Assembly: GCA_905235375.1 (NCBI GenBank)
Contig: CAJOLH010000004.1
Span: forward strand, 2,133-66,132
DNA length: 64,000 nucleotides
Source of the DNA: an uncultured Bacteroidales bacterium
GTDB taxonomy: Bacteria; Bacteroidota; Bacteroidia; Bacteroidales; UBA3663
Direction: 5' to 3'
The notes below the pieces were generated by a model. It was not told the origin of the DNA and did no database searches. It was given only the letters and a program-made list of their open reading frames with translations. Shown piece by piece: positions 1 through 59,654 of this stretch; within the stretch, counting starts at the first letter, position 1, and every line of letters starts with the position of its first letter. Position numbers and translations under genes: made by a program.

Positions 1-235
1 AGCTGTAAGGTGTTCAGCAGATAAGCGACGGATATATGATTTGTTATATGGAAAAAGACATCTTCAGTAAGCAAAAACAATAAAATGAGCCTAATTCACC
101 TTATTTAATGGAGTGAAGTAGGCTGAATTATTAGGAAAATATGTTACTTTGCAGCATCAATTTCGGATGTCCGAATAAGGTCACACTGATTCCTCAGATT
201 CACACAGATTTTGCTTGCGCACGCCCGGCGTTCTA

Positions 236-372
236 TTTTATTGAACACGGAATGCACTGGAAAATGGTGGATCCCAATGGAGACCTGAGTGCGTTTCTGC
301 GTCGCACTCAGGACGGAATCCACTGATGTTTGACGCGAAATACATTCTGTGAGATTCGTGTGATCCGTGATA
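236..372 (+). repeat. A element copy 1 (hairpin 284..312)
   Basis: CGAACACGGAATGCACTG...CCTGAGTGCG-TTTCTGCGT-CGCACTCAGG...TTGACGCGA. Confidence 0.85.
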
Positions 373-390
373 GATACATCCTACGTTCTT

Positions 391-505
391 TTTTATCGAA
401 CACGGAACTCACTGAGGACACGGAAATTTAGCTGGTTCTAATGGAGGCCTGAGTGCATTGCTACGTCGCACTCAGGACGGAAGACACTGAGGCTTGACGC
501 AAAAT
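391..505 (+). repeat. A element copy 2 (hairpin 448..476)
   Basis: Same architecture as copy 1, with a 9-bp stem CCTGAGTGC/GCACTCAGG. Confidence 0.85.
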
Positions 506-641
506 GAACTCATTGGACTTTAAGGACTTTTGCTTGCGCACTCCAGGGAGAGTAATTCCGTAAATGTCCGAAAAGACGAAAAAGGACGAAAATAATTTGT
601 AGTTATTTCCGCGTTTTTCGATGTTGTTATATAGAAGCCAA

Positions 642-2795
642 ATGAAACACCTACTTCACATCCTCCCATGCTGCGCCCTGCTGCTGCTCTGCAGCTGCAC
701 CACTTCGCGCAAGCAGGTCGCTCAGCGAGAGCAGACCACCTTTCAGACTGCGGGCCACTGGAAACCCGCAACGGATATCCGCTCGGACCTCGTGATGGTC
801 TATGGCGCCAACGACCGCCCAAGAGAGACTTTCAGCCAGCGCGTGCAGTCGTGGCGCGACCGAGGCTACACCACTCACTTCATGACCGGCATCGCCTGGG
901 GAGAGTATCAGGACTACTTCACGGGACGATGGGACGGCCAATGGCACCTCGACGAGGGACAGAAGCAGATGAACGGCGACACCATCTGGCACGGCCACCT
1001 GATTCCGTATATCGTGCCTACGCACAACTACCTGAAATACTTCAAGGAACGCCATATCAAACCCGTCATCGATGCCGGCATCAGCTCGATCTTCCTCGAA
1101 GAGCCTGAGTTCTGGGCACGCAGCGGCTACAGCGAGGCTTTCAAGCGCGAATGGCAGGAATATTACGGTTTTGCGTGGCGACCGCAGCACGAGTCGGCTG
1201 AAAACACCTACCTCTCGAACAAACTGAAATATCACCTCTACTACCGTGCGCTCGACGAGACCTTCACCTACGCCAAGCAGTACGGTCAGCAGCAGGGCAT
1301 GGAGGTGCGCTGCTACGTCCCCACCCATTCGCTGCTGAACTATGCCCAGTGGCAGATTGTCAGCCCGGAAGCGTCGCTGGCTTCGATGAAGAACTGCGAC
1401 GGCTACATTGCGCAGGTGTGGACAGGAACCTCGCGCGAGCCGAACTTCTTCGACGGCAGGATGAAGGAACGCACCTTCGAGACCGCATTCCTCGAATATG
1501 GATGTATGTATTCGATGGTGGCTCCCACCAACCGCAGGGTGTATTTCCTCACCGACCCCATCGAGGACCGCGCCAAGGACTGGCAGGACTACCGCCGCAA
1601 CTACCAGGCCACGTTCACCGCCCAGCTGCTCTATCCCGGCAATAACTTCTATGAGGTTATGCCATGGCCCGACCGCATCTATGAGGGGCATTACCGCAAG
1701 AGCCTTGACAGCAACGAGCGCATCCGCATCCCGCGATTCTACAGCACCCAAATGCAGGTGATGATCAACACACTGAACGATATGCCCGTGAGCGACAACC
1801 AACTCAGCGGCACACAAGGGGTGGGCATCCTGATGTCAAATTCACTGATGTTCCAGCGTTCGCCACGGCCCGTGGAGGGCTATGACGACCCGCAGCTGAG
1901 CAACTTCTACGGGTTGGCTCTGCCACTGCTGAAACGCGGCGTACCCGTAGGCATCGTACACCTTGAGAACACCGGCTATGCCGACACCTGGAAGGGCGTC
2001 AGGGTGCTGCTGATGAGCTATTCCAACCAGAAACCCATGACGGCTGCCGAGAACGAACACCTCGCCCACTGGGTAGCGCGGGGTGGACACCTCATCTACG
2101 CTGCGCGTGACAACGACCCCTTCCAGCACGTCCTCGAATGGTGGAACCAGGGCACGATGAACTACCAGGCTCCTGCCGACCACCTGTTCGAGTTGATGGG
2201 TATTCCTCCTGCAGCTCCCGAGGGCACCTACCACTACGGGCGCGGCTCAGTGCAGATTATCCGCAGGGATCCCAAGGAGTTTGTCATGCAGCAACAAGGC
2301 GATGCACCCCTGCTCACGGCTGTGGGCAATGTGCTGAAGGACATCAGTTTCAAGAACCATTTCCGTCTCACACGCGGCGCATACGAGCTGGCGGCGGTGC
2401 TTGATGAGGACGTTGTGAGCAATGAACCGCTCACCCTGCAAGGCTGCTTCATCGACCTCTTCGACCCCCAACTGCCTGTGGTTCGACAGAAGACCGTGCG
2501 CCCTGGCGAACAGGCTTTCCTATATAATATAGAGAAGGTGCGCAAGCAACGCCGCCCGCAGGTGCTCGCAGCCGCCTCGCGCCAGTCGGAAGAACAGGTC
2601 TCTGCCCACTCCTATGCGTTCACTGCCAAGAGCCCTGCCGAAACCACGAACGTGATGCGTATCCTCCTGCCTTCCGAACCAAAGCGGGTCACGGTCTCTG
2701 CAGACAGCGAAAACCACTGGGACGAGGATAGTCATACCCTCTTCCTTACGTTCGAGAACCAGCCTGATGGTGTCAGGGTGGAGATAGATTTTTAA
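642..2795 (+). CDS. exported lipoprotein of unknown function (about 717 aa)
   Basis: ORF 621..2795. The ATG at 642 gives MKHLLHILPCCALLLLCSC, a lipobox-type signal. The ORF is long and codon-biased, with a long shadow ORF on the opposite strand. I cannot name a family motif. Confidence 0.6.
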   Translation: MKHLLHILPCCALLLLCSCTTSRKQVAQREQTTFQTAGHWKPATDIRSDLVMVYGANDRPRETFSQRVQSWRDRGYTTHFMTGIAWGEYQDYFTGRWDGQWHLDEGQKQMNGDTIWHGHLIPYIVPTHNYLKYFKERHIKPVIDAGISSIFLEEPEFWARSGYSEAFKREWQEYYGFAWRPQHESAENTYLSNKLKYHLYYRALDETFTYAKQYGQQQGMEVRCYVPTHSLLNYAQWQIVSPEASLASMKNCDGYIAQVWTGTSREPNFFDGRMKERTFETAFLEYGCMYSMVAPTNRRVYFLTDPIEDRAKDWQDYRRNYQATFTAQLLYPGNNFYEVMPWPDRIYEGHYRKSLDSNERIRIPRFYSTQMQVMINTLNDMPVSDNQLSGTQGVGILMSNSLMFQRSPRPVEGYDDPQLSNFYGLALPLLKRGVPVGIVHLENTGYADTWKGVRVLLMSYSNQKPMTAAENEHLAHWVARGGHLIYAARDNDPFQHVLEWWNQGTMNYQAPADHLFELMGIPPAAPEGTYHYGRGSVQIIRRDPKEFVMQQQGDAPLLTAVGNVLKDISFKNHFRLTRGAYELAAVLDEDVVSNEPLTLQGCFIDLFDPQLPVVRQKTVRPGEQAFLYNIEKVRKQRRPQVLAAASRQSEEQVSAHSYAFTAKSPAETTNVMRILLPSEPKRVTVSADSENHWDEDSHTLFLTFENQPDGVRVEIDF

Positions 2796-2888: not shown

Positions 2889-2896
2889 TATATTTG
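2889..2896 (+). promoter_or_regulatory. Bacteroidota -7 box TATATTTG (start of the shared leader cassette)
   Basis: Matches the TAnnTTTG consensus. TTTG lies about 15-20 nt upstream. Confidence 0.6.
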
Positions 2897-2940
2897 CGGT
2901 GTCCATTTCGACTTATCGAAAACAAAAGCGGATAATAACT

Positions 2941-3066
2941 AAGGGGTCGCAGAGCTCAAAATTAATTAAAAGAAAAACGGGACAAGATTGGTCACGGCTT
3001 TTTAGATTAGCTTCTTTTGATAATTTTACAATTAATTTTCTTATAATTTTGAGCGAAGCGACCCCT
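2941..3066 (+). repeat. E element (MITE-like, about 22-bp terminal inverted repeats GGGGTCGC(T/A)(T/G)(C/A)GCTCAAAATT)
   Basis: The left arm 2941-2964 is the reverse complement of the right arm 3044-3066. Confidence 0.85.
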
Positions 3067-3404
3067 AAAAAACTCGAAAAATGAGACAATAAAGGTTTCG
3101 TTGGTTTCGTGGTTTTTCGGAATCCGAAAATACGATGGGGGTAATTCCGATAATGCTCGAAATAACGAAAAAGGACGAAAATTGGATCACGGATCATGGG
3201 GATTGAACGGATGTCCGAATAAGGGCACACAGATTCCTCAGATTCACACAGATTTTTGCTTGCGCACTCCCGAGTAGTCTGCGAGTCGCCAAGGAGTTTT
3301 TTTCTCTACGGACTCATTGGACTTTAAGGACTTTTGCTTACGCACGGCAGGTTTATTGCATTTCTAAATAATATCATTTACTAACTTACTAAAAAAAACG
3401 AATC

Positions 3405-5750: not shown

Positions 5751-5898
5751 GGGGGTCGCTTCGCTCAAAATTATAAGAAAATTAATTTTTAAAATTATCA
5801 AAAGAAGATGGTCCAAAATTGCCGTGACCAATTTCGACTCGTTTTTCTTATAATTTTTTGATTCAATTTTTTGGAAATTTTGAGCGCAGCGACTGCCC
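5751..5898 (-). repeat. E element, opposite orientation
   Basis: Matches the reverse complement of 2941..3066. Starts 34 nt after the metallophosphoesterase stop. Confidence 0.85.
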
Positions 5899-5902
5899 AC
5901 AT

Positions 5903-6050
5903 TTTCGAACACGGAATGCACTGAGGACACGGAAATTAGCGGGTCACAAAGGAGGCCTGAGTGCGTTTCTTCGTCGCACTCAGGACGGATGCCACTGAGG
6001 CTTGACGCGAGACGTGTTCCGTGAGTTTCGTGTGTTCCGTGGTAGAATTC
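5903..6050 (+). repeat. A element copy 3 (hairpin 5956..5984)
   Basis: This is the longest copy and includes the 3' GTGTTCCGTGAGTTTCGTGTGTTCCGTGG segment. Confidence 0.85.
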
Positions 6051-6473
6051 GACAATTCACGATAAAGGACAAGGGCACCAAGGAGTTATTATTCTCTACG
6101 GACTTTTGGGACTTTAAGGACTTTTGCTTGCGCACTCCCGGGATTAAAGGGCACACTGATTCCACTGATTCACACAGATTTTCGCTTGCGCGCTTCGAGG
6201 ATAGGCAGTGGCTCTTCAATCTATCACGAATTGGCGAATTAGCAAATTTCTCTACGGATGTCTTTTTCTCTACGGACTTCAGGGACTCTAAGGACTTTTG
6301 CTTGCGCGCGCCAATGATAGTCCATTATGTCAGACTCCATAGAGCCAAAGAAATCTGTGGAAATCTGTGAAATCTGTGTGACATGTGCCGATGTTCTGCC
6401 GCACGGAGTGCAGGGGTTAGGTCACACAGATTTCGCAGATGAACACAGATTTTTGCTTGCGCACTCCCAGCGT

Positions 6474-6597
6474 TTTTTATTATCGAACACGGAAGACACC
6501 GAGGACACTGAAATTAGCGGGTCACAAGGGAGGCCTGAGTGCGTTTCTGCGTCGCACTCAGGACTGAAGCCACTGATGCTTGACGCGAAATATATTC
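6474..6597 (+). repeat. A element copy 4 (hairpin 6534..6562)
   Basis: Same architecture as the other A copies. Confidence 0.85.
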
Positions 6598-6770
6598 CTT
6601 AGAGAGAAGAATCGGACAGACCTCAGTGTCCTCCGTCCAGTGGACAATGCAGCGCTGTCCACTGGTCTCCCTTGGACGCATAAGATTCCGTGTCTTCGGT
6701 GTATTCCGTGGTAGATAAAAATTGTTCTGCAGCAGAAAAAAAGTTCTGTAGTAGATGCCTCCAACATTCT

Positions 6771-6860
6771 TTTTTTCGAACACGGAATGCACTGAGGACA
6801 CTGAAATTAGTGGGTCCCATGGAGGCCTGAGTGCGTTTCTGCGTCGCACTCAGGACGGAA
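6771..6860 (+). repeat. A element copy 5, 3'-truncated (hairpin 6826..6854)
   Basis: Same 5' half and hairpin as the other A copies. Confidence 0.8.
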
Positions 6861-8385: not shown

Positions 8386-11298
8386 TTAGAAGCTGATGAG
8401 GAAATCGACGAGGTTCTGGTCGGGGGAAAGGGAGAACTTGCGGCGGAGACGGAGGCGGGCACTTTCGACGCCACGTACGGAGAGGTTGGTGAAGGTGGCG
8501 ATCTGCTTGGTGGAGAGATTGAGGCGCAGGAGGGCGCAGAACTTCAGGTCGCTGGCGGTGAGCGAGGGGTATCGCTCCTGCAGGTTGCGGAAGAAGTGTT
8601 CGTGGATGAGGTCGAAGTTCTTCTGGTAGATGCTCCAGAACTCGAGGTTGCCTTCAGTCTGCTGGATGCGCTTGAGGAGGGCATTCATCTCGCGCACCGA
8701 GATGTTGCCCTTTTTCTGTTCCTCCTGCATTGATTCGCGGAGGTTCTCGATGACCTTTTCCTTCGAGAAGACATCCATGGCCAAGGTAGCAAGATCCTTG
8801 GACTTGGAGGAGAGCTCGGTTTCGAGTATCTGCCGCTGCTGCTGTGCGATGCGCTGTTCCTGCTCGAGCATGATGATGCGCTGTTCGCGGCTCTCCCGTT
8901 CATGCTGATGCTGCTGCAGGAGGATGGCACGGCGCGTGCTCCATCGGGCATAGATCCATGCTACAATGCCGATGATGCCAAGATAAAGAAGGATGGACCA
9001 CCAGCGGAAATACCAGGGTTGGAGGATGCGGAAATGCAGCTGGAGCGTATCGAGGGTTTCCCCTGTGGCACCAAGCGCCTCAGCCTGAAGCGTATAGGTA
9101 CCGGGGGTCAGATTGTTGAGCGTCAGCTGCCGGTCGGTGATTGGAATGTCGCGATTGGGACCTTCGGGGATGGAATAGCGGAACGAGATGCCACTCCCGT
9201 TGTAGTCGGGATAGGAGAAGATGAGGTTGATATTGGGTTCGATGACGGGCACACCATCGATGAGCTCCTGATGCGAGATGTCCTGTCGCTGTCCGTTGCT
9301 CTTGTTGAAATAGGACGTGGAGACAGCAATGCGTGGCTGGATGAGCGAAGCGAAATGACGTGCAGCGAGGTCGTATCGCACCACGCCGCCCGACATGTTG
9401 AAGTAGGCACAGTCGCCGAACTGAAAGACGTTGGCGCACCTGTCGCCCGCCAACATACCGAGCGAAGAGACGGGGATGTACTGACGCAGACAAAGGCTGT
9501 CGGCCTGCTTGTCGATGAGGGCATAGCCCTTCTGCCCTGCCAACCACACGCCGTAGGAGCCAGCATCGGTAGCGTTGAAGACATCCTGCGTACTGGTGAG
9601 AAGACGGTTGAGCGGTTCGTAGGGGACGATGCGCTGCGAAAGGTCGTCGTAGGTGTAGAGCCGCTGTTCGTCGCTCAGCACGATGTTCCCGAAGAACTTC
9701 ATGACATGGCAGGTGGAAGCTCCTCCCTCCTCACCGTCGAGGCGTTCGAACGAGCGGAGGTGCTGGACGGCACGCAGGTCGCGATCGAGCGTGATGCAGA
9801 AGACTCCCTTCTGCATATTGACCGCCCAGATGTGCCCCTGGTGATCGACCTCGAAATGACGGATGGGTGACGAGAACCCTTCGACATTGTGACTGAAGAC
9901 CCACTTGCCCTGATGCTGACGATAGATGCGCAGACGGGTGTAGGACGATTCGACAAGAACATCCTGGTCCCAAATGCGGCATTGCTGAAGGCACGTGCTG
10001 CTGGCATCAGTGTCAGGTACGGGATTGAGCTGATAGCCGTGGTCGGCATCGACCATGAACGTACTGCGATTGCAGCCGAGAAAAAACTGATCTCCAATGC
10101 GGGTGATGTGCCAGTTCTGCCCTTCAGTGTTGGGCACAAGGGTCGCCTCTCCCTGACGCTCGCCTTTCGCTGAGGAGATGGAGTCGGCATCGATGGGGAT
10201 ATGGTAGAAGCCCTCGTTGGTGGCCATGAGAAGTTCACCCTGATGGAGCTGAAGCCCATAGACGGTGCCGATGGACTGATGGACGGGCGAAGGTCTGAGG
10301 CAGGTGATGGGGAAGCCGCAATGAATGAGGGCTATGCCGTTGTCGAGACAAGCCCAGACGTTGTTGTCGGCATCGCAGAAGAGGTTGAGCACCGAGTTGT
10401 TGACCAATCCGTCAGCGACGTTGTAATGCCAAAGCAGCTTACCACTGAGGTCGAGACCGTAGATACCATCGCGGATAGTGCCGATGACGAGCGTGCTGTC
10501 GCGGGTGAAGACAGCACGGTTTATGGTGGCACGGCGCAACTGTTCGTCGATGTTGGTATGGTAGGGAATGGTGAGCCCGGAGGCGGGACGATGCAGATAG
10601 AGCGCGGCATTCTCGGTGCAGAGCAGCATATCGCCAGTGGAACGAAGCTGAAAGCCTGCCACGATGCGACTGTTGCCATAACGCGAAGCGGGAATGGCGG
10701 GTTCGTAGTCGTGCCCCGTGAAGCGATAGTAACCGCCTTCGATTAGTTGCGCCCACAGCTGTCCGCCTATCTGATGGAGATAGAGCGGATGCTTATCGCT
10801 GACGTTGATGGGGCTGACACTGCCCTTTCCATCGTTGGCATCAGGGTCGTAACGGAAGATGGAGGCAAAGGTCTGGAAGTAGATGACATTGTCCTGCTGC
10901 AAGATGAACCAAGGCTCCTCGTGTTCGATCGGGAAGTCACCGATGAGGGGACGCAGCGAGGTGTAGATGAAATGCCCGAAGGTATCGCGTTCGAAGTAAC
11001 CGAAATCTTCGTAGGTACCTACATAGATGCGGCTACCTACTGCCTTTACCGTACGGATGATGGTATTGTCGGCGATGGAGGCAGACGACCACTGGAAGCC
11101 GTCGTAAACCAGAAGACACTTATTGGTGGCAAAATAGACGATGCCGTTCTGATCCTGCGAGCAGCACCACACCTGCGAGCCGATAGAGAGTCCGTAGTCG
11201 GCAGGCGTAAAATTGGTGATGACGGGTCGGAACCCTGCAGCCTGCATGACCATACATACGGGCAGGAGCCACAAGAGGAGGAGGAAACGGAGCTTCAT
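8386..11298 (-). CDS. transmembrane one-component regulator: beta-propeller/Y_Y_Y sensor + LuxR-type HTH
   Basis: The ATG at 11298 gives the signal MKLRFLLLLWLLPVCMVMQA. The upstream part of ORF 8386..11526 runs through the SusC promoter region and is an artefact. Y_Y_Y-like ISFRYSIPEG...TPGTYTLQAEA is followed by the TM segment WWSILLYLGIIGIVAWIY, a coiled coil, and C-terminal LTASDLKFCALLRLNLSTKQIATFTNLSVRGVESARLRLRRKF (LuxR/GerE HTH). Confidence 0.8.
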   Translation of the reverse strand: MKLRFLLLLWLLPVCMVMQAAGFRPVITNFTPADYGLSIGSQVWCCSQDQNGIVYFATNKCLLVYDGFQWSSASIADNTIIRTVKAVGSRIYVGTYEDFGYFERDTFGHFIYTSLRPLIGDFPIEHEEPWFILQQDNVIYFQTFASIFRYDPDANDGKGSVSPINVSDKHPLYLHQIGGQLWAQLIEGGYYRFTGHDYEPAIPASRYGNSRIVAGFQLRSTGDMLLCTENAALYLHRPASGLTIPYHTNIDEQLRRATINRAVFTRDSTLVIGTIRDGIYGLDLSGKLLWHYNVADGLVNNSVLNLFCDADNNVWACLDNGIALIHCGFPITCLRPSPVHQSIGTVYGLQLHQGELLMATNEGFYHIPIDADSISSAKGERQGEATLVPNTEGQNWHITRIGDQFFLGCNRSTFMVDADHGYQLNPVPDTDASSTCLQQCRIWDQDVLVESSYTRLRIYRQHQGKWVFSHNVEGFSSPIRHFEVDHQGHIWAVNMQKGVFCITLDRDLRAVQHLRSFERLDGEEGGASTCHVMKFFGNIVLSDEQRLYTYDDLSQRIVPYEPLNRLLTSTQDVFNATDAGSYGVWLAGQKGYALIDKQADSLCLRQYIPVSSLGMLAGDRCANVFQFGDCAYFNMSGGVVRYDLAARHFASLIQPRIAVSTSYFNKSNGQRQDISHQELIDGVPVIEPNINLIFSYPDYNGSGISFRYSIPEGPNRDIPITDRQLTLNNLTPGTYTLQAEALGATGETLDTLQLHFRILQPWYFRWWSILLYLGIIGIVAWIYARWSTRRAILLQQHQHERESREQRIIMLEQEQRIAQQQRQILETELSSKSKDLATLAMDVFSKEKVIENLRESMQEEQKKGNISVREMNALLKRIQQTEGNLEFWSIYQKNFDLIHEHFFRNLQERYPSLTASDLKFCALLRLNLSTKQIATFTNLSVRGVESARLRLRRKFSLSPDQNLVDFLISF

Positions 11299-11338
11299 GG
11301 TGGATAAAATATTTAGAAAGAGGGTGCGTTTTCGGGCA

Positions 11339-11346
11339 CAAAGATA
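11339..11346 (-). promoter_or_regulatory. -7 box TATCTTTG for the Y_Y_Y/LuxR regulator
   Basis: Lies 41 nt upstream of the 11298 start. Confidence 0.5.
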
Positions 11347-11508
11347 CGAATTATTATTGAAACGTGGAAATTTTTTTATAATTATTTCATTATTCAACTC
11401 AATAATTAACAATAGATTGTAAAAAAGAGCGTAGGAAAAGCGTAGTAGAAGCAAATCGTAGCGTAGTAGATTCGTAGTATAATATTTGGACGTAAGGTAG
11501 AAAAACCC

Positions 11509-11516
11509 TATCTTTG
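11509..11516 (+). promoter_or_regulatory. -7 box TATCTTTG (shared leader cassette, SusC operon)
   Basis: Matches the TAnnTTTG consensus. TTTGG lies about 22 nt upstream. Confidence 0.6.
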
Positions 11517-11561
11517 CAGCGTCCATTACGAGAAATCGAAAACAAATGCGAATAATAACAA

Positions 11562-11690
11562 GGGGGTCGCTTCGCTCAAAATTCTCAAAAAATTAAATCA
11601 AAAAATTATAAGAAAAACGGGGCGAGATGGTCACGGCTTTTTAGATCACCTTCTTTTGATAATTTTTTATAATATTGAGCGAAGCGACAC
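11562..11690 (+). repeat. E element
   Basis: Same orientation and context as 2941..3066. The right arm is degenerate (GCGACAC). Confidence 0.85.
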
Positions 11691-12163
11691 TAAAACAAAA
11701 CATCGAAAAACCTGGGACAAAAAATTTTCGTTGATTTCGTGGTTTTCGTGGTTTTTCGGAATACTAAAATACGAGGGAGGTAATTCTGAAAATGTCCGAA
11801 AAGACGAAAAAGGACGAAAATTGGATCACGGATCATGGGGATTGAACGGATGTCCGAATAAGGTCACACAGATTCCTCAGATTCACACAGATTTTGCTTG
11901 CGCACACCCGTGATTGTCTGCGAGTCGCCAAGGAGGTATTTTTCTCTACGGACTTATTGGACTTTAAGGACTCTTTGCTTGCGCACTCCAGGGAGAGTAA
12001 TTCCGAAAATGTCCGAAAAGACGAAAAAGATCCGAAAAGACGAAAAAGGACGAAAATGGTTTGTAGTCATTTCCGTGTTTTTCGAAGTTGCCATGAAGCG
12101 AACATTCCAACAACCTACACATCTTATATATTATTAATCCACAAAAACCAAATCCAATTAAGT

Positions 12164-16901: not shown

Positions 16902-18257
16902 ATGAAACATTATCACAAATCACTGATAGGACTGGCAAGCCTTGCACTGCTCGTCTGCTCGTGCAACAGTTCGAACGAACAAACGAACCAAGAGGGCAGT
17001 CAGACAATCCAGCTGAGCGACAACGAGCTGCTTGACCTTGTGCAGCAGCAGTGCATGAACTACATGTGGGATGGTGCTGACCCGACCTCCGGACTTGCCT
17101 ACGAACGCATCCACCTCGATGGCGTTTATCCTGCGAACGACAAGATGACGATTACCACGGGTGGTTCGGGCTTCGGTGTTGCCGGCCTGATAGTCGGCAT
17201 GGATCGCGGCTGGATCAAACGTGCGGATGGCGTGGCTCGACTGACCCGCATCGTCGATTATCTGGCAAAGGCCGACCGCTACCACGGTGTCTGGTCGCAC
17301 TGGATGGACGGTCCTTCGGGCAAGACCATCCCCTTTGGCACGAAGGACAACGGAGGCGACCTCGTGGAGTCGTGCTTCCTGATGCAGTCGCTGCTTTGCG
17401 TGCGCCAATATCTGAAAGCTGATGTCGAAGCGGAAGCCTACGTCATCGACAAGATCAATGAGCTATGGAAGGCCATGGAGTTCGACTGGTACACACGCGA
17501 AGGCCAGCACGTAATCTATTGGCATTGGAGTCCCAACTATGGCTGGGAAATGAACTTCCCGCTGGAGGGCTACAACGAGTGCCTTATCACCTACATCCTT
17601 GCAGCTGCCAGTCCGACACACACCGTGCCTGCCGAATGTTATCACGAGGGCTGGGCACGCAGTGGCGGCATCAAGAGCGATGCTGCTCCCTACGGCTATC
17701 CGCTCGACGTGAAGCACAACTATGCCGAGGCGAACGGCGGTCCGCTGTTCTGGGCACACTACAGCTGGATTGGACTTTGTCCGAAGGGGCTCAAGGACCA
17801 ATATGCCGACTATTGGCACGTGACGGCTAATCATGCCCTTGCCAACTATGCCTACTGCGTGGATAATCCCAAGGGCTACAAGGGCTACAGCAAGGATTGC
17901 TGGGGCCTGACCGCCAGCTATTCGCCCGACGGATATGCAGCCCACGCTCCCAACCAGGACCTTGGCGTCATCACGCCAACCGCTGCCCTTTCGAGCTTCC
18001 CCTACACTCCCGAACAGAGCATGGCCGCCTTGCGTCATTTCTATTCGATGGAGTCGTTCCTCTGGGGCAAATACGGGCCGTTCGATGCCTTCTCGCTCGA
18101 TCCTTCGTGGACCCTTCCACGTTACCTTGCCATCGACCAGCTCACCATTGCACCCATGATCGAGAACTATCGCACAGGGCTGCTCTGGAAACTCTTCATG
18201 AGCTGTCCGGAAGTGCAGGAGGGACTGACGAAACTGGGGTTTACAATTAACAATTAA
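16902..18257 (+). CDS. GH144-like (DUF3131, 'glucoamylase family') putative endo-beta-1,2-glucanase lipoprotein
   Basis: The ATG at 16902 gives MKHYHKSLIGLASLALLVCSCNS. Size (about 450 aa) and sequence character match my recollection of the DUF3131/GH144 family. The assignment is from memory, not a search. Confidence 0.55.
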   Translation: MKHYHKSLIGLASLALLVCSCNSSNEQTNQEGSQTIQLSDNELLDLVQQQCMNYMWDGADPTSGLAYERIHLDGVYPANDKMTITTGGSGFGVAGLIVGMDRGWIKRADGVARLTRIVDYLAKADRYHGVWSHWMDGPSGKTIPFGTKDNGGDLVESCFLMQSLLCVRQYLKADVEAEAYVIDKINELWKAMEFDWYTREGQHVIYWHWSPNYGWEMNFPLEGYNECLITYILAAASPTHTVPAECYHEGWARSGGIKSDAAPYGYPLDVKHNYAEANGGPLFWAHYSWIGLCPKGLKDQYADYWHVTANHALANYAYCVDNPKGYKGYSKDCWGLTASYSPDGYAAHAPNQDLGVITPTAALSSFPYTPEQSMAALRHFYSMESFLWGKYGPFDAFSLDPSWTLPRYLAIDQLTIAPMIENYRTGLLWKLFMSCPEVQEGLTKLGFTINN

Positions 18258-18311
18258 TAATTAACAATTAATAATTAATAATTAACAATTAATAATTAAC
18301 AATTAATAATT
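18244..18311. repeat. tandem CAATTAATAATTAA (14-bp) repeat, G-free on the + strand, between GH144 and GH3
   Basis: About 4.5 units. The repeat begins inside the last codons of GH144 (..TINN*). Confidence 0.9.
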
Positions 18312-24987: not shown

Positions 24988-26265
24988 TTATTCGTACTCG
25001 AACACTCCGTTTTCAGTATGGAGCGTGACCTTGGCACCCTCGGAACGTGCTTCGACGTGACCGATAATCTGCGCATCGATGTTGAAGCTGTGGGCAATGT
25101 CGATGACCTCCTGGGCATATTCGGCAGGCAGATAGACTTCGAGCCGATGGCCCATGTTGAACACCTTATACATCTCGGACCAATCGGTAGCCGACTGCTC
25201 GTGAATGGTGCGGAACAGCGGCGGGATGGGGAAGAGATGATCCTTGATGACGTGCAGATTCTGGATGAAGTGGAGCACCTTGGTCTGTGCGCCTCCCGAG
25301 CAGTGTACCATGCCGTGGAGGATGGAGTTCAAAGAGTTTGAGGGGTTCGAGGGGTTCGAGAGGTTTGAGGGGTTCGAGGGGTTTGAGGGGTTTGAGGGGT
25401 TCGAGGGGTTTGAGAGGTTTGAGAGGTGAGAGCGGAACACATCGAGCATCTTCTTGACCACTGGGGCATAGGTGCGCGTGGGACTGAGCACGAGCTTTCC
25501 GGCATCGAGAGGACTGCCCTCCACCGGGTCAGTGAGACGAAGCTGTCCGCTATAGACGAGCGATTCGGGCACTGCATGATCGTAAGACTCTGGATATTTC
25601 CCGGCAAGATACTTGGCGAAGACATCATGACGAGCCGAGGTCAGACCGTTGGAACCCATGCCTCCGTTGTATTCCTTCTCGTAGGTGGCTTGTCCGAAAC
25701 TTGCGAGGCCGACGATGACGTCTCCAGCAGCGATGTTGGCATTGTCGATGACGTCAGAGCGCTTCATGCGACAGGTGACCGTGGAATCGACGATGATGGT
25801 GCGAGCCAAGTCACCGATGTCGGCAGTCTCTCCACCTGTTCCATAGACACCGATTCCCATCTCACGCAGTTCTGCCATCAGTTCGTCGTTGCCATTGATG
25901 ATGGCGCTGATGACTTCGCCCGGGATGAGCATCTTGTTGCGCCCAATGGTCGATGAGACAAGGATGTTATCAACAGCACCCACACAGATGAGGTCGTCGA
26001 TATTCATGATGAGAGAATCCTGTGCAATGCCCTTCCAGACGGAGAGGTCGCCTGTCTCCTTCCAATACATGTAGGCCAAAGACGTCTTTGTGCCTGCACC
26101 ATCGGCATGCATGATGTTACAATAGTCGGGATCGCCTCCGAGGATGTCGGGAATGATTTTGCAGAAAGCCTGTGGATAGAGGCCCTTGTCGATGTGCTTG
26201 ATGGCGTTGTGCACATCTTCCTTGCTGGCACTTACGCCGCGCATCATATATCTTTGGTCAGCCAT
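24988..26265 (-). CDS. purM: AIR synthase-related protein (Bacteroidota-type phosphoribosylformylglycinamidine cyclo-ligase) carrying a 36-aa (SNP)n insertion
   Basis: The ATG at 26265 gives MADQRYMMRGVSASKEDVH. PurM-like DGAGTK and GMVHCSGGAQTK regions. Codons 25325..25432 are a 9-bp tandem repeat translated as LSNLSNPSNPSNPSNPSNPSNLSNPSNPSNSLN. Confidence 0.75.
   Translation of the reverse strand: MADQRYMMRGVSASKEDVHNAIKHIDKGLYPQAFCKIIPDILGGDPDYCNIMHADGAGTKTSLAYMYWKETGDLSVWKGIAQDSLIMNIDDLICVGAVDNILVSSTIGRNKMLIPGEVISAIINGNDELMAELREMGIGVYGTGGETADIGDLARTIIVDSTVTCRMKRSDVIDNANIAAGDVIVGLASFGQATYEKEYNGGMGSNGLTSARHDVFAKYLAGKYPESYDHAVPESLVYSGQLRLTDPVEGSPLDAGKLVLSPTRTYAPVVKKMLDVFRSHLSNLSNPSNPSNPSNPSNPSNLSNPSNPSNSLNSILHGMVHCSGGAQTKVLHFIQNLHVIKDHLFPIPPLFRTIHEQSATDWSEMYKVFNMGHRLEVYLPAEYAQEVIDIAHSFNIDAQIIGHVEARSEGAKVTLHTENGVFEYE
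25325..25432 (-). repeat. 12 tandem 9-bp units (GRGGTTYGAG-type) inside purM
   Basis: Read directly from the sequence. The units are GGGTTCGAG, GGGTTTGAG and AGGTTTGAG. Confidence 0.95.
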
Positions 26266-35428: not shown

Positions 35429-35584
35429 AATTTTGTTAGGAATTAAATTGAAAAAAGATGAATTCTTTGCTTCTAAATAACAACATCGAAAAATGCGGAA
35501 ATGACTACAAAATATTTTCAAATTCGTCTTTTCGAGTTTTGTTTTGGGGTCACTTTTGTTTTCGATATGTCGAAATACTCGCTG

Positions 35585-35592
35585 CAAATATA
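35585..35592 (-). promoter_or_regulatory. -7 box TATATTTG (shared leader cassette, 1091-aa T9SS gene)
   Basis: The reverse complement of CAAATATA. Confidence 0.6.
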
Positions 35593-39113: not shown

Positions 39114-40612
39114 ATATTGTACTGGGTGTCATCGCCCTTTACTTCCTCATGGTGTTCGGCGTCAGCTGGTGGACTACCCGCCGTCGTGACCGCGACACCG
39201 AAACCTTCTATCGTGGCGATCGCAAGAGCCCCTGGTGGGTGGTGGCGATTGCCATGATTGGTACGTCCATCTCAGGCGTGACCTACGTCAGTGTGCCCGG
39301 CATGGTCGAAGCCAAGCAGATGAGCTACATCCAGATGGTGCTGGGCTTCGTCTGCGGATATTTCGCCGTGGCCTACATCCTGCTGCCTCTTTACTATCGC
39401 TTGGGGCTGTCGAGCATCTACGTCTATCTGGAGCAGCGCTACGGACGCTATGCCCACAAGACGGGTGCGGCGTTCTTCCTCCTGAGTAAGTATCTCGGCT
39501 GCGCAGTCAGGATGTATCTTACCGCCGTCGTGCTGCAGCTCGTGCTCTTCGACCAGCTGGGCGTACCCTTCGGACTTTCGGTGGCGTGCATCATGCTCAT
39601 CGTCTGGCTCTATTCGTTCCGGGGTGGTGTGAAGACGCTTGTCTGGACCGACCTGCTGCAGACACTCTGCCTGCTTTCGGCGATGATCGGGTTCGTGATC
39701 TGCATCAGTTCCGCCATGGGGTTGGACTTCACGGGGCTATGCAGCACCATTTCCGACAGTCCGATGTCGAGGGTATGGTTCTTCGACGATGCCAACGATA
39801 CCCGCTACTTCTGGAAGCAGTTCCTGGGCGGTATGTTCACCACCATCGCCATGACCGGTCTCGATCAGGACATGATGCAGAAAAACCTCTCGTGCAAGTC
39901 GCTGAAGGAGGCACAGAAGAACATGGTCTCTTACGGTTTCGGATTCCTGCCCGTCAACATCATCTTCCTTTCCTTAGGTATATTATTATATATGTACGCG
40001 CGCGAAGTGGGTGTTGATAAGAGTGGCGACGAACTCTTCCCCTATCTTGCCACAGGCATCAATCCAACCACGGGACAACCTTTCCTGCCCCTCATTGTGA
40101 GTGTGCTCTTCGTCCTTGGATTGGTGGCCGCTGCCTTCTCGTCGGCAGGTTCGGCAGTCACTGCACTGACCACCGCCATAATGGTCGATTTCCTGCGCAA
40201 GACACCCAATGAGGAAGGAGAGGGAAGTTTGAAGGGTTCGAGAGGTTTGAGGGGTTCGATAGAAGGCAAGCGTTTCCGTGTCCACATCATCAATTCCATC
40301 ATGATGGGGTTCATGATCTACCTGTTCCATCTGCTGTCATCGGGCTCGGTCATCAACGCTGTCTATGTGGTGGCATCCTATACCTACGGTCCGCTCATCG
40401 GACTCTTCTTCTTCGGCATGTTTACCAGACGCAAGGTGAATGACGGCTGGTGGATACCTGCCATCTGCATCGCTTCGCCTCTCCTCTGCTGGATTCTCGA
40501 CCAGCACTCCGAAGCATGGTTCAATGGCTATAAGATCGGCTACGAGATGCTGCTCATCAATGGTGCTCTGACGGCTATAGGACTGCTGGCAGCATCTTTG
40601 AGGAAAAATTGA
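39104..40612 (+). CDS. sodium:solute symporter family transporter with a short repeat-encoded loop insertion
   Basis: Polytopic membrane protein of about 500 aa with an SSS-like N-terminus. The TTG start at 39104 lies inside the 9-bp repeat tract, and an alternative ATG is at 39150. Residues SLKGSRGLRGSIE (40227..40262) are encoded by the GAGGGGTTY repeat. Confidence 0.75.
   Translation: MNPYIVLGVIALYFLMVFGVSWWTTRRRDRDTETFYRGDRKSPWWVVAIAMIGTSISGVTYVSVPGMVEAKQMSYIQMVLGFVCGYFAVAYILLPLYYRLGLSSIYVYLEQRYGRYAHKTGAAFFLLSKYLGCAVRMYLTAVVLQLVLFDQLGVPFGLSVACIMLIVWLYSFRGGVKTLVWTDLLQTLCLLSAMIGFVICISSAMGLDFTGLCSTISDSPMSRVWFFDDANDTRYFWKQFLGGMFTTIAMTGLDQDMMQKNLSCKSLKEAQKNMVSYGFGFLPVNIIFLSLGILLYMYAREVGVDKSGDELFPYLATGINPTTGQPFLPLIVSVLFVLGLVAAAFSSAGSAVTALTTAIMVDFLRKTPNEEGEGSLKGSRGLRGSIEGKRFRVHIINSIMMGFMIYLFHLLSSGSVINAVYVVASYTYGPLIGLFFFGMFTRRKVNDGWWIPAICIASPLLCWILDQHSEAWFNGYKIGYEMLLINGALTAIGLLAASLRKN
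40227..40262 (+). repeat. 4 tandem 9-bp units of the same family inside the symporter CDS
   Basis: GTTTGAAGG GTTCGAGAG GTTTGAGGG GTTCGATAG. Confidence 0.9.
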
Positions 40613-43256: not shown

Positions 43257-43830
43257 AATAATCTTTTGTGGTCGCTTCGCTCAAAAGAGCATAGCGACCA
43301 CCTACTACATGAATATCGAAAATCCGGAAATATCTAAAAATATTTTCGGACTTTTTCGTTTTTTCGGACATTTTCGGAATTACACCCATCGTATTTTGGA
43401 TTCCGAAAAACCACGAAAACATCGAAACCAACGAAAACTTTATTACTTCGTCCTTTTCAAGTCTTTGGATGTTTATTTCGATCACTGATCACACGAATCA
43501 CACGGATTATCTGTCGGCACAAAGGAAACCAGTGGTCATTGCTTTGCCGACCACTGGGCGGATAAAACGGATCCTTGCCCGTCATCTTATCTCTATGGTG
43601 TTTTTCTTATTTCTCTACGGACTTCAAGGACTTAATGGACTATCCCTGGAGTGCACAAGCAAAAGTCTGTGCCCTTACATCTCTACAGATTTCACAGATT
43701 TATCAGATTAGCGGCTCGGTCTTAAATAAATCCGTTCAATCCGAGAAATCCGTAGAGGAATGGGACTATCATTGACGTGCGCAAGCAAAAGTCCTTATAG
43801 TCCCGAAAGTCCGTAGAGAATAAATGATCT
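43257..43830 (-). repeat. mosaic repeat block with D, C and B modules in reverse orientation
   Basis: 43342-43445 is the reverse complement of the D module (compare 3088-3185). 43775-43822 is the reverse complement of a C module. 43650-43712 is a B-like module in reverse. Confidence 0.8.
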
Positions 43831-43956: not shown

Positions 43957-44010
43957 AGCTCTTGTTTTTGTTGAAAAAAAGACCTATATTTGCAACCTAA
44001 ATCAGCGATT

Positions 44011-47805: not shown

Positions 47806-48024
47806 ATAGTAAAATTTCTCGCAGACGCAGTCAAGACCCATCAGGGTTAAGACCAAAAGCCCGTTTCCGCCCAGCATGCAGACAAGGAAAAGCAGGGTTA
47901 ACTCATACAAGTAAAGTCCTGCCAGGGTTAAGACGAGAAGTAGTAAACTCTTTGTAGGGGTAAAGTCTAATTCCAGTCAAGTTATTTCAGGGAACTACAG
48001 AAGAATTCTTCTTATTTTCGAAGC

Positions 48025-55948: not shown

Positions 55949-56081
55949 ATAATATATTATAAATAATTTGAGATGGTTTTCAGCGTCTATATAACATCCT
56001 TGTTTGGGGTCACATCGCTCTGCTCTGCGACCCCTTTGTTATTATCCGCATTTGTTTCCGAATAGTTCGAAATGGGCGCTG

Positions 56082-56089
56082 CAAAGATA
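56082..56089 (-). promoter_or_regulatory. -7 box TATCTTTG (shared leader cassette, carboxylesterase gene)
   Basis: The reverse complement of CAAAGATA. Confidence 0.6.
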
Positions 56090-59645: not shown

Positions 59646-59654
59646 TTATTTTTT

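What the first reader, a model, noticed from the sequence alone, without database searches (positions are those of the whole stretch)
2889..2952. One promoter-plus-5'-leader cassette sits in front of at least four, probably five, unrelated exported-protein genes
Seen directly. From the -7 box onward, about 55 nt are conserved at four loci.

- (1) + strand, 2889: TATATTTGcggtgtccatttcgacttatcgaaaacaaaagcggataataactaaggggtcgc
- (2) + strand, 11509: TATCTTTGcagcgtccattacgagaaatcgaaaacaaatgcgaataataacaagggggtcgc
- (3) - strand, 56089: TATCTTTGcagcgcccatttcgaactattcggaaacaaatgcggataataacaaaggggtcgc
- (4) - strand, 35592: TATATTTGcagcgagtatttcgacatatcgaaaacaaaagtgacccc

A weaker fifth copy is at 144 (TTACTTTGcagcatcaatttcgga).

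Similarity starts at the -7 box, not upstream of it. What is shared is therefore the first part of the transcript, including a small hairpin TTTCGA-NNNN-TCGAAA.

The downstream genes are a lipoprotein, a T9SS metallophosphoesterase, SusC, a T9SS adhesin and a lipoprotein esterase. All are exported.

Established knowledge: TAnnTTTG is the Bacteroidota sigma-A -7 element.

Inference: this is either a common post-transcriptional control site for an envelope/secretome regulon, or a promoter-carrying repeat that has seeded these loci.
Basis: partly seen in the sequence, partly recalled or inferred. Interest (0 to 1): 0.7.

Follow-up and report, generated by a model that had tools for sequence, protein, structure and literature searches.

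The report
Transposase-less IS110 mini-elements parked on promoters
The repeated "promoter plus leader" is the end of a bridge-RNA-guided IS110-type mobile element that homes to the Bacteroidota -7 promoter box; the window holds transposase-less mini copies wedged between existing promoters and their genes, not a shared regulatory leader.

Summary
Four strong copies and one weak copy of the motif lie at the stated places (0.2 expected by chance). The interpretation needs changing.

- **What the conserved stretch is.** After TTTGC-AG, the conserved ~45 nt is the left end (LE) of an IS110-family insertion sequence. In related rumen Bacteroidales, the same LE (up to 93% identical) leads into a bridge-like RNA, an IS110 RNA-guided transposase, and a right end ...TTGTTATATAGA-AG.
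- **How the element finds its site.** In 26 of 35 transposase-bearing loci a guide string in that RNA copies the 6-10 nt left of the element. A second guide copies the right end. Both end in AG, the core dinucleotide.
- **The -7 box is the target, not cargo.** For this subgroup the target guide reads TTTGCAG.
- **The window copies.** They carry no transposase and no bridge RNA. Four of the five keep a matching right end, so they are non-autonomous mini-elements of 93-577 nt.
- **Empty sites.** Orthologous esterase and SusC loci in related species have the same promoter with no insert.
- **Downstream genes.** Elsewhere, mini-elements also precede cytoplasmic genes.
- **Internal anatomy.** GATAATAACA is a sub-terminal inverted repeat of the right end.

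Verdict: new variant of a known kind, of moderate interest.

The parts
2889..2897 (+). Copy 1: host -7 box TATATTTG plus C. This is the left target, not part of the element.
   Evidence: TAnnTTTGC precedes the module in about 23 of 28 unbiased metagenome copies.
2898..2899 (+). Copy 1: position of the core dinucleotide, here GG (AG mutated).
   Evidence: Register from the LE alignment A1. The core is AG in all transposase-bearing relatives.
2900..2942 (+). Copy 1: LE module. It comprises the donor start TGTCCA, the hairpin TTTCGA-CTTA-TCGAAA (2906-2921), an A-rich spacer and the sub-terminal inverted repeat ATAATAAC (2932-2939).
   Evidence: CM hit of 47.0 bits. 86% identical to the LE of the L007/L172-type autonomous IS. 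IRL identified.
2943..3065 (+). Copy 1: internal palindromic module P (GGGGTCGC...GCGACCCC, about 123 nt).
   Evidence: (I9, I15). The same LE-P-RE layout recurs in mini-elements L009, L024, L164-L191.
3066..3350 (+). Copy 1: further modular repeats filling the leader. No recognisable right end; the Metallophos ATG is at 3405.
   Evidence: (D4, D5, D7, D9, D13). No TATAGAAG-type string is seen before 3405 in the sequence shown.
11509..11519 (+). Copy 2: host -7 box TATCTTTG, then C, then core AG (11518-11519).
   Evidence: The orthologous SusC promoter TAACTTTGCAG is unoccupied in L194/L195/L197.
11520..12096 (+). Copy 2: a 577-nt mini-element. It contains the LE 11520-11562 (hairpin 11526-11541 with one mismatch), palindrome P 11563-11688, nested modular repeats, and a degenerate RE-proximal module 12052-12096 (...GTTGCCATGA).
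   Evidence: CM hit of 47.8 bits. LE 93% identical to the autonomous IS. Also.
12097..12098 (+). Copy 2: right core AG, followed by the unique 5'UTR. The SusC ATG is at 12164.
56079..56089 (-). Copy 3: host -7 box TATCTTTG, then C, then core AG (56080-56079).
   Evidence: The same promoter is present in the empty orthologues L105/L106/L107/L112.
55986..56078 (-). Copy 3: a 93-nt mini-element. It contains the LE with a bulged hairpin, a short GGGGTCGC...GTGACCCC hairpin, and the RE GGATGTTATATAGA.
   Evidence: CM hit of 44.1 bits. A 95-nt gap lies exactly here in four orthologous loci.
55984..55985 (-). Copy 3: right core position, mutated to CG. The esterase ATG is at 55948.
35582..35592 (-). 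Copy 4: host -7 box TATATTTG, then C, then core AG (35583-35582).
35472..35581 (-). Copy 4: a 110-nt minimal mini-element. The LE is truncated after AACAAAAG and lacks the IRL. The RE-proximal module is ...TTTGTAGTCATTTCCGCATTTTTCGATGTTGTTATTTAGA.
   Evidence: CM hit of 31.9 bits. Also (I5, I20).
35470..35471 (-). Copy 4: right core AG. The adhesin ATG is at 35428.
144..154 (+). Copy 5: -7-like box TTACTTTG, then C, then core AG (153-154).
155..635 (+). Copy 5: a 481-nt composite element with a divergent LE (CATCAATTTCGGATGTCCGAATAAGG; hairpin at the usual offset) and a canonical RE ...GATGTTGTTATATAGA (RE-proximal module 588-635).
   Evidence: (I5, D14). Not recognised by the LE models.
636..637 (+). 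Copy 5: right core AG. Only CCAA separates it from the likely true start ATG at 642 (MKHLLHILPCCALLLLCSC).

Best explanation
The cassette is the terminal DNA of an IS110-family, bridge-RNA-guided insertion sequence clade common in Bacteroidales. It is not a host leader.

**Architecture of autonomous members (about 1.7 kb):**
- left target, then core AG;
- LE: a ~6-nt donor start, a covarying hairpin, an A-rich spacer and the sub-terminal repeat ATATAACA;
- an internal TAnnTTTG promoter;
- a ~180-nt two-loop RNA;
- the IS110 recombinase gene;
- RE ...TTGTTATATAGA, then core AG.

**Guides.** One loop of the RNA carries a string identical to the left flank plus AG (the left target guide). The other carries a string identical to the RE end plus AG (the left donor guide). 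In the subgroup relevant here the target guide is (A)TTTGCAG(CG). The element therefore recombines into the sigma-A -7 box TAnnTTTGC|AG, right at the transcription start and always in the gene's orientation.

**The window copies.** The five copies lack recombinase and RNA. Four keep both LE and RE; copy 1 keeps only the LE. They are non-autonomous mini-elements, some stuffed with other nested repeats. They were probably mobilised in trans by an autonomous sibling, then decayed (core mutated in copies 1 and 3).

**Consequence.** The host promoter now transcribes through the mini-element, so each gene has acquired a 93-577-nt structured 5' leader that begins with the LE hairpin.

**Shown here:** homology of the ends; guide-flank and guide-RE correspondence; core AG; empty sites; absence of transposase and RNA from the window; covariation of the hairpin and the inverted repeat.

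**Inferred:** trans-mobilisation; transcription start at or near the core; any effect on expression.
For: 1. **Link to a transposase.** A genome scan with the motif found 24 loci in six rumen Bacteroidales MAGs plus a 1.6-kb contig binned as Fibrobacter. In two MAGs and that contig the module continues into identical non-coding DNA. The contig (L007) shows that this DNA leads into an IS110-type transposase. The transposase of the diverged full copy in L012 matches NF033542 'IS110 family RNA-guided transposase' at 200.8 bits (cutoff 140), carries DEDD_Tnp_IS110 and Transposase_20, and matches IS621 transposase 8wt6 at E 5.5e-7.
2. **Complete copies.** L172 and L189 read TAnnTTTGC-AG-[CGTCCATTTCGAGAAATCG ... 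CCTGTTATATAGA]-AG-C.., with a host ATG about 40-70 nt later.
3. **Guide correspondence.** In 26 of 35 transposase-bearing loci a guide string ending in AG equals the 6-10 nt left of the LE (CTCGAAG, CGGACAG, CCTGAG, TATTACTGAG, TTTGTAGC, TTTGCAGC and others); three of these automatic matches needed correction by eye. The second guide tracks RE variants TATAGAAG, TATGGAAG and TATGATAG. The sense of both matches is what Durrant 2024 defines for LTG and LDG.
4. **Structured RNA.** 28 consensus pairs, 19 with compensatory changes, arranged as a closing stem and two stem-loops with internal loops that hold the guides.
5. **Same IS, different promoters.** Identical IS copies sit in different promoters with different TAnn and different right flanks (L034, L036, L037).
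6. **Unbiased census.** A metagenome scan with an LE-internal pattern gave 28 distinct left flanks. T at -16 in 26/28, A at -15 in 22/28, and TTTGCAG in about 23/28. 14 of the 30 loci are full IS; the rest are mini.
7. **Empty sites.** The esterase orthologues (86% aa) in four species have the same promoter and a 95-nt gap exactly at the element. The SusC orthologue L194 has TAACTTTGCAG|CC plus a 50-nt UTR. L022 is an empty site for the L012 IS.
8. **Window contents.** No transposase by tblastn and no bridge-RNA remnant by nhmmer at E<=10. LEs are 81-93% identical to the autonomous LE.
9. **Hairpin.** At least 12 different stems at a fixed offset. 83% of cells paired, 5/6 pairs compensatory, covariation score 0.354 against 0.138 shuffled, 0/500 shuffles as high.
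10. **Inverted repeat.** The sub-terminal repeat between LE and RE covaries: ATATAACT/AGTTATAT, ATAACATA/TATGTTAT, ATAACAGGA/TCCTGTTAT.
Against: - No autonomous copy was found in the window, and the rest of this genome could not be searched. A trans-acting source in this organism is therefore unproven.
- Copy 1 has no recognisable right end and a GG core. Copy 3 has a CG right core. Copy 2 has a degenerate RE. Copy 5 has an LE the models do not recognise. These are fossils, and their mobility is inferred from family structure, not observed.
- The right-target and right-donor guides could not be located convincingly in the RNA. LTG and LDG sit on the 3' sides of their loops, whereas I recall them on the 5' sides in IS621, so the RNA is bridge-like rather than demonstrably the same design.
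- The first genome scan forced TTTGCRGYG, so only the transposase-based and metagenome scans count as evidence for targeting.
- The alignment used for the hairpin statistics was fitted to the model.
Confidence: 0.85

Rival explanations
1. A host cis-regulatory 5' leader shared by an envelope/secretome regulon, acting as the binding site of an RNA-binding protein or sRNA, or as a stabilising 5' hairpin.
For: All five window genes encode exported proteins. The module probably forms the 5' end of the mRNAs. The hairpin is structurally conserved.
Against: - It is absent from orthologues of the same esterase and SusC genes, which keep the promoter.
- It heads the IS110 transposase in many genomes.
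- It precedes cytoplasmic genes elsewhere.
- Conservation of the hairpin and ATAACA extends to transposase-bearing elements inserted at non-promoter targets.
- There is no Rfam family.

Secondary co-option at individual loci is not excluded.
Confidence: 0.05
2. A promoter-carrying mobile repeat: the element brings its own -7 box and thereby seeds new promoters.
For: Similarity begins at the -7 box. The repeat is mobile. Every copy is oriented toward a gene.
Against: - Empty orthologous sites already have TAnnTTTGC at the same place.
- The TAnn and everything upstream differ between copies, even for identical IS copies.
- The RNA's target guide equals TTTGCAG, which defines it as target and not donor.
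- Sibling elements with other guides sit after unrelated sequences with no -7 box.
- The circle junction TATAGA-AG-CGTCC contains no TAnnTTTG.
Confidence: 0.04
3. Independent in-place decay: each window copy was once a full-length IS that lost its middle by deletion at that locus. On this view the copies did not spread as mini-elements.
For: The window copies are heterogeneous and degenerate. Full-length IS copies occupy the same kind of site in relatives.
Against: - The same LE-palindrome-RE layout recurs at many different loci and in several species (L009, L024, L164-L191).
- Nearly identical mini copies sit in different flanks (L164, L168, L175).
- Three window copies share the same 40-50-nt RE-proximal module, which is not present in the autonomous IS.
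- No transposase or RNA remnants are left.
Confidence: 0.1

Closest known systems
IS621 / IS110-group bridge-RNA elements (Durrant et al. 2024, PMC11208160; Hiraizumi et al. 2024 and 2026)
   Same: - DEDD/RuvC-like plus Tnp recombinase: NF033542 and an 8wt6 match.
- A ~180-nt structured RNA encoded in the LE upstream of the recombinase, with two internal loops.
- One guide reads like left target plus core, another like RE end plus core.
- The same core dinucleotide sits on both sides.
- Extra matched bases after the core resemble handshake guides.
   Different: - The core is AG, not CT.
- The RNA has its own internal TAnnTTTG promoter. No promoter is formed at the RE-LE junction, so the integrated element can instead be read from the host promoter it lands on.
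- The guides lie on the 3' sides of the loops.
- The LE carries an additional ~45-nt terminal module (hairpin plus sub-terminal inverted repeat) upstream of the RNA gene.
- The target is a promoter element rather than REP-like repeats.
- Abundant transposase-less derivatives exist.
IS900/IS901/IS1110-type mycobacterial IS110 members, which insert between the ribosome-binding site and the start codon of host genes in one orientation (recalled from memory, not checked here)
   Same: An IS110-family element that homes to a gene-expression signal in a fixed orientation, so that host signals drive the element.
   Different: There the target is a translation-initiation signal. Here it is the Bacteroidota -7 promoter box. 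No mini-derivatives are known to me for IS900.
ISPpu9/ISPpu10 of Pseudomonas putida (PMC12288879; bioRxiv 10.64898/2026.03.19.712850)
   Same: IS110 members that target a repeated intergenic sequence, have a native promoter for bridge RNA and tnp, and move non-coding modules separately ('modular transposition').
   Different: Their targets are REP palindromes. The separately moving module is an sRNA gene, not an LE+RE mini-element lying in 5'UTRs.
Classical bacterial MITEs in 5' regions (Neisseria Correia elements; Porphyromonas gingivalis BrickBuilt; recalled from memory)
   Same: Small non-coding multi-copy repeats that end up between promoters and genes and become part of the mRNA leader, often nested or modular.
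   Different: Classical MITEs have terminal inverted repeats and target-site duplications made by DDE transposases. These elements have only a sub-terminal repeat, a 2-nt core shared with the target, and RNA-guided site choice.

Membership tests
IS110-family (bridge-RNA-guided) insertion sequence | Encodes a DEDD/RuvC-like plus Tnp-domain IS110 recombinase | tested here: not met
   No recombinase in the window (tblastn, best E 0.8). Met in the autonomous relatives that share the same LE. The window copies can therefore only be non-autonomous derivatives.
IS110-family (bridge-RNA-guided) insertion sequence | Structured non-coding RNA in the LE whose loops carry guides matching target and donor | tested here: not met
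   No remnant in the window (nhmmer, E<=10). In relatives, 28 pairs with 19 compensatory, and LTG and LDG correspondence in 26 of 35 transposase-bearing loci. RTG and RDG were not resolved.
IS110-family (bridge-RNA-guided) insertion sequence | Ends homologous to those of autonomous members | tested here: met
   LE 81-93% identical to the L007/L172-type IS. CM scores of 32-48 bits. RE (T)GTTATATAGA present in copies 3, 4 and 5, degenerate in copy 2, absent in copy 1.
IS110-family (bridge-RNA-guided) insertion sequence | Same core dinucleotide on both sides, with no longer target duplication | tested here: met
   AG...AG in copies 2, 4 and 5. GG on the left of copy 1 and CG on the right of copy 3, each a single-base change. 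AG in all autonomous relatives.
IS110-family (bridge-RNA-guided) insertion sequence | Sequence-specific insertion at the site specified by the guide, with an empty site identifiable | tested here: met
   The left flank TTTGC-AG equals the LTG of the L007, L034 and L039 elements. Empty orthologous sites exist for copy 3 and copy 2.
IS110-family (bridge-RNA-guided) insertion sequence | Circular RE-LE intermediate and recombinase/RNA-dependent insertion | not testable with these tools
   Needs PCR or long-read detection of junctions, or reconstitution.
Classical MITE | Terminal inverted repeats and a target-site duplication | tested here: not met
   The inverted repeat is sub-terminal and asymmetric: about 33-45 nt from the left core and 3 nt from the right core. 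Only the 2-nt core is shared. Hence 'MITE-like', not a MITE.
Curated cis-regulatory leader RNA (Rfam) | Match to a described RNA family | tested here: not met
   Only a tRNA passes in the window. Nothing relevant appears in four full elements at E<=1.
Regulon-wide conserved leader (JUMPStart/ops-like logic) | Element is conserved with the gene across orthologues and restricted to a functional class | tested here: not met
   Absent from orthologues. Downstream genes elsewhere are about half cytoplasmic.

The most novel reading that the evidence does not exclude
A Bacteroidales clade of bridge-RNA IS110 elements has programmed its target guide to the phylum-specific sigma-A -7 box.

- Each insertion would hijack a host promoter to express the element.
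- The clade has spawned donor-only mini-elements (LE hairpin, sub-terminal inverted repeat, RE) that are mobilised in trans.
- These mini-elements occupy roughly half of the TTTGCAG promoters in this 64-kb stretch, rewriting the 5'UTRs of PUL/CAZyme and other genes.
- The covarying LE hairpin and the IRL/IRR stem may fold the RE-core-LE junction of a single-stranded circle into a structured donor site. That would add a structural layer to donor recognition.
Probability: 0.35. Interest if true: 0.75.

Novelty: new variant of a known kind. Interest (0 to 1): 0.55.

Why it matters
1. **Annotation.** A motif that looks like a regulon-wide leader is mobile DNA. In rumen and gut Bacteroidales, conserved 'promoter+leader' motifs should be checked against IS110 ends before being called regulatory.
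2. **Bridge recombinases.** This is a natural lineage with an AG core, a guide aimed at a promoter box, an internally promoted RNA, and an extra structured LE module. Its apparently trans-mobilised, cargo-free donors give natural data on minimal donor requirements.
3. **Microbiome gene expression.** These insertions add 0.1-0.6 kb of structured leader to SusC, glycoside hydrolase and other genes, and they differ between close relatives. A SusC orthologue 95% identical in protein carries a different insert at the same site. They are therefore a plausible source of strain-level expression differences.

Tried and rejected
- **Rfam.** The window at gathering threshold and four full elements at E<=1 gave nothing relevant.
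- **Long-range RNA pairing.** I first read ATAACA and TGTTAT as closing a leader RNA. They are better explained as the DNA-level sub-terminal inverted repeat of the IS, because the pair also exists 1.7 kb apart in full elements.
- **A covariation idea.** I tested whether the 5' side of the second RNA loop covaries with the A-rich LE segment. It is not supported: own-element match 5.45 against 4.9 for non-cognate pairs.
- **RTG and RDG.** I tried to read them from the 5' sides of the loops. One good case (L025, AAATTGC against GCAATTT) was not reproduced in the others (and inspection).
- **Empty site for copy 1.** The only relatives of the Metallophos protein have a different 5' context, so this was uninformative.
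- **Exact-protein look-up of the esterase.** It returned only the window's own contig.
- **An 'RE-like' string at 43985-44025.** It is just the start of a coding sequence.
- **Literature.** Searches for IS110 with MITE, non-autonomous, TAnnTTTG or Prevotella found no description of promoter-box targeting or of such mini-elements. A 2026 preprint notes small IS110s and tandem non-coding units, but not these.
Full report
**1. The observation**

A degenerate pattern spanning the -7 box and the first hairpin arm hits exactly these five places, against 0.2 expected; none of 100 shuffles reaches five. A profile HMM and a covariance model recover four of them at 32-48 bits. The copy at 144 is not recognised, so it is only loosely related in its left part. 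Upstream of TAnnTTTG the copies are unrelated.

A string ...GTTGTTATATAGAAG sits just before the unique 5'UTR in four of the five leaders. The leaders run from 93 to 577 nt for the four bounded elements, and about 500 nt for copy 1. The long ones are packed with other modular repeats.

**2. Where the module leads in other genomes**

A scan of species-representative genomes with the motif returned 24 loci in six rumen Bacteroidales MAGs, plus a 1.6-kb contig binned as Fibrobacter.

In two MAGs and that contig, every copy has an identical module followed by identical non-coding DNA. The contig (L007) shows that this DNA leads into an ORF beginning MAKLGKKIKTAKGLELKVVNPDAAGIDISPKE. L012 has a full copy with a diverged module. 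Its protein has these matches:
- Pfam DEDD_Tnp_IS110 and Transposase_20;
- NCBIfam NF033542 'IS110 family RNA-guided transposase', 200.8 bits against a cutoff of 140;
- the IS621 and ISCro4 transposase structures.

Searching with that protein gave about 40 Bacteroidales loci, labelled Prevotella, Alloprevotella, Rikenellaceae, Parabacteroides, Bacteroides pyogenes and others, plus a few contigs binned to other phyla.

All share one architecture:
- a variable left flank;
- AG;
- about 6 nt, a hairpin, an A-rich stretch, then (A)TATAACA;
- variable DNA;
- an internal TAnnTTTG box;
- about 180 nt of conserved non-coding sequence;
- the transposase gene;
- ...TTGTTATATAGAAG.

**3. Guides, core and target**

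Two short strings inside the conserved non-coding region vary between elements.

The first equals the 6-10 nt immediately left of the element. Examples are CTCGAAG, CGGACAG, CCTGAG, TATTACTGAG, TTTGTAGC, TTTGCAGC, AAAATAG and TTATATAG. An automatic search found such a match in 26 of 35 loci; three of those were mis-placed and were corrected by eye.

The second equals the last 8 nt of the right end and changes with it: TATAGAAG, TATGGAAG, TATGATAG.

Durrant et al. define the left target guide and the left donor guide as pairing with the bottom strand. Each therefore reads like the top-strand left target plus core, or RE end plus core. That is the sense seen here. Both strings end in AG, so AG is the core dinucleotide: [LT]-AG-[LE...RE]-AG-[RT]. 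One to three further matched bases after AG correspond to the first bases of the LE, as expected of handshake guides.

The RNA region is structured. RNAalifold on 20 diverse elements gives a closing stem and two stem-loops with internal loops that hold the two guides. There are 28 pairs, 19 of them with compensatory changes. I could not locate the right-side guides convincingly. The guides also sit on the 3' sides of the loops, unlike my recollection of IS621. I therefore call the RNA bridge-like.

**4. The -7 box is the target**

For the subgroup whose LE matches the window (L007/L038/L172, L033, L034, L039, L040), the target guide is TTTG(C/T)AG. Several results agree.

- Three identical IS copies (two in Prevotella lacticifex, one in MAG RUG318) sit after TATTTTTGCAG, TATCTTTGCAG and TATCTTTGCAG. 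Their upstream DNA is unrelated and their right flanks differ.
- Complete copies in L172 and L189 read TAnnTTTGC-AG-[CGTCCATTTCGAGAAATCG...CCTGTTATATAGA]-AG-C.., with a host start codon about 40-70 nt beyond.
- My first scan had forced the left flank, so I repeated it on metagenome contigs with a pattern lying wholly inside the LE. Of 28 distinct left flanks, 26 have T at -16, 22 have A at -15, and about 23 have TTTGCAG.
- The guide does not specify the TAnn, so its presence shows that the sites are real promoters.
- The exceptions are informative. One mini-element subfamily sits after GCGA-AG. There are also tandem copies, and one copy has a mutated core.

**5. The window copies are insertions**

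*Esterase (copy 3).* Orthologues with 86% (one 83%) protein identity in four other species keep the same upstream region and the same promoter (GATATTTGC...). They then go straight into about 35 nt of UTR. The alignment shows a 95-nt gap exactly where the window has the element.

*SusC (copy 2).* An orthologue with 74% identity has the same divergent neighbour and the same CGTAGT-type upstream repeats. It has TAACTTTGCAG|CC followed by a 50-nt UTR. A 95%-identical orthologue has a different ~300-nt insert at the same TTTGCAG, followed by the homologous UTR tail. The site is therefore an insertion hot spot.

*L012 IS.* L022 provides an empty site (TTTTTTGCGTA|AGCAATTTT) for the L012 IS.

**6. 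What the window copies are**

The window has no IS110 recombinase and no remnant of the RNA. The LEs are 93%, 86%, 84% and 81% identical to the LE of the L172-type IS.

Boundaries:

| Copy | Strand | Core | Element | Size | Right core | Note |
|---|---|---|---|---|---|---|
| 2 | + | AG 11518-11519 | 11520-12096 | 577 nt | AG 12097-12098 | |
| 3 | - | AG 56080-56079 | 56078-55986 | 93 nt | CG 55985-55984 | right core mutated |
| 4 | - | AG 35583-35582 | 35581-35472 | 110 nt | AG 35471-35470 | |
| 5 | + | AG 153-154 | 155-635 | 481 nt | AG 636-637 | 4 nt before the likely true ATG at 642 |
| 1 | + | GG 2898-2899 | LE from 2900 | - | - | no right end found |

The layout LE, palindrome, RE recurs at many loci and in several species, sometimes as near-identical copies in different flanks. 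I therefore read these as a propagating family of non-autonomous mini-elements rather than independent deletions.

[quoted passage not shown] It also shows that excision depends on donor-arm recognition. Trans-mobilisation is thus mechanistically plausible, but it is an inference here.

**7.

- TAnnTTTGC is host promoter and left target.
- AG is the core.
- CGTCCA is the donor start.
- TTTCGA-N4-TCGAAA is a hairpin found at the same offset in virtually all elements, with at least 12 different stem sequences. On a model-fitted alignment of 38 distinct sequences, 83% of cells pair and 5 of 6 pairs show compensatory changes. The covariation score is 0.354 against 0.138 for shuffles (0/500), and slid controls collapse.
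- GATAATAACA(AG) is the left copy of a sub-terminal inverted repeat. Its partner is the TTGTTATAT of the right end. The two covary: ATATAACT with AGTTATAT, ATAACATA with TATGTTAT, TATAACAC with GTGTTATA, ATAACAGGA with TCCTGTTAT.
- RNAalifold on reconstructed RE-LE junctions returns this stem.

Because mini-elements retain exactly these parts, I infer they act in cis in transposition. How they act is unknown. A folded single-stranded junction is a speculation prompted.

**8. Exported proteins**

All five window genes are exported. Among mini-element copies elsewhere:

- Cytoplasmic: radical-SAM/HemN, an alpha-amylase without a signal peptide, an HD-domain protein, a PurH-like protein and a GxGxxG flavoprotein-like protein.
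- Secreted or lipoprotein: GH115, GH97, GH28 and DUF3089.

That is about half and half. The window contains a SusC/SusD pair and other exported-protein genes, which may explain five out of five. Within the window, 4-5 of the 8-9 TTTGCAG-type promoters are occupied. Unoccupied ones lie at 29361 (-), 29490 (+), 52164 (-) and 56276 (-).

**9. Comparison with what is known, and verdict**

The kind is known: an IS110-family element guided by a bridge RNA. What I did not find described is the following:
- a clade with an AG core whose target guide is set to the Bacteroidota -7 box;
- its extra LE module;
- its abundant transposase-less derivatives that become 5' leaders.

From memory, the nearest precedent for homing to an expression signal is IS900-type insertion between the ribosome-binding site and the start codon.

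I rate the finding a new variant of a known kind, with interest 0.55. The regulon reading is not supported. The 'repeat that seeded these loci' reading is right in spirit, but the promoter is the landing pad, not the cargo.

Noticed in passing
window 160-620, 3096-3350, 5896-6860, 11720-12090, 43330-43830: A second layer of modular intergenic repeats, for example GGTCACACAGATTCCTCAGATTCACACAGATTTTGCTTGCGCAC, CTCTACGGACTTATTGGACTTTAAGGACTTTTGCTTGCGCAC and TCCGAAAAGACGAAAAAGGACGAAAAT. Many have ~9-10-nt internal periodicity and occur in both orientations. They are nested inside the long mini-elements and also stand alone. One module (GATTGAACGGATGTCCGAATAAGG) resembles the LE of another IS110 subgroup.
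   Followed up: partly
window 5752-5893: A free copy of the ~140-nt palindromic module P (GGGGTCGCTTCGCTCAAAATT...TTTTGAGCGCAGCGAC) downstream of the Metallophos gene, with no LE or RE next to it.
   Followed up: partly
window 11427-11495; L194 about 1380-1450; L198: CGTAGTAG-type direct repeats lie just upstream of the SusC promoter and are conserved upstream of orthologous SusC genes. They are a candidate operator for the divergently encoded regulator with Reg_prop repeats (8386-11526, - strand).
   Followed up: no
window 25315-25440 and 40206-40277; 59650-59829; 48019-48482; 18240-18309: Short satellites: a 9-nt GGGGTTCGA/GGGGTTTGA array at two loci; a 10-nt TCCCTTAATA array with an inverted partner; three tandem 126-nt units; and a TTAACAATTAATAA array.
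   Followed up: no
L193 (ENA ERZ28613667 scaffold_24663), about 25-330: A SusC orthologue 95% identical in protein carries a completely different ~300-nt insert at the same TTTGCAG promoter site, so the site is polymorphic between close relatives.
   Followed up: partly
L047 90-305, L048 about 1268; L030 2887-2931: Some autonomous elements have the target guide TTATATAG, which is the right end of sibling elements. They form tandem or nested arrays of LEs.
   Followed up: partly
L164, L165, L168, L175, L188: A nearly identical mini-element subfamily (LE-palindrome-RE) sits after (T)GCGA-AG rather than after a -7 box. This suggests mobilisation by a sibling with a different target guide.
   Followed up: no
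window 29361 (-), 29490 (+), 52164 (-), 56276 (-): Unoccupied promoters of the TAnnTTTGCAG type, two of them reading TTTGCAGCGTAAA. They are potential empty targets.
   Followed up: no
window 621-642: The mechanical ORF start at 621 lies inside the mini-element's right end. The likely true start of the lipoprotein gene is ATG 642, only 4 nt after the element. Before the insertion the mRNA was therefore probably nearly leaderless.
   Followed up: partly
L007 / L038 (JAFVGH010000143.1, 1.6 kb, labelled Fibrobacter MAG): This short contig is the Bacteroidales IS itself. It is probably a binning artefact rather than evidence of the element in Fibrobacter.
   Followed up: no
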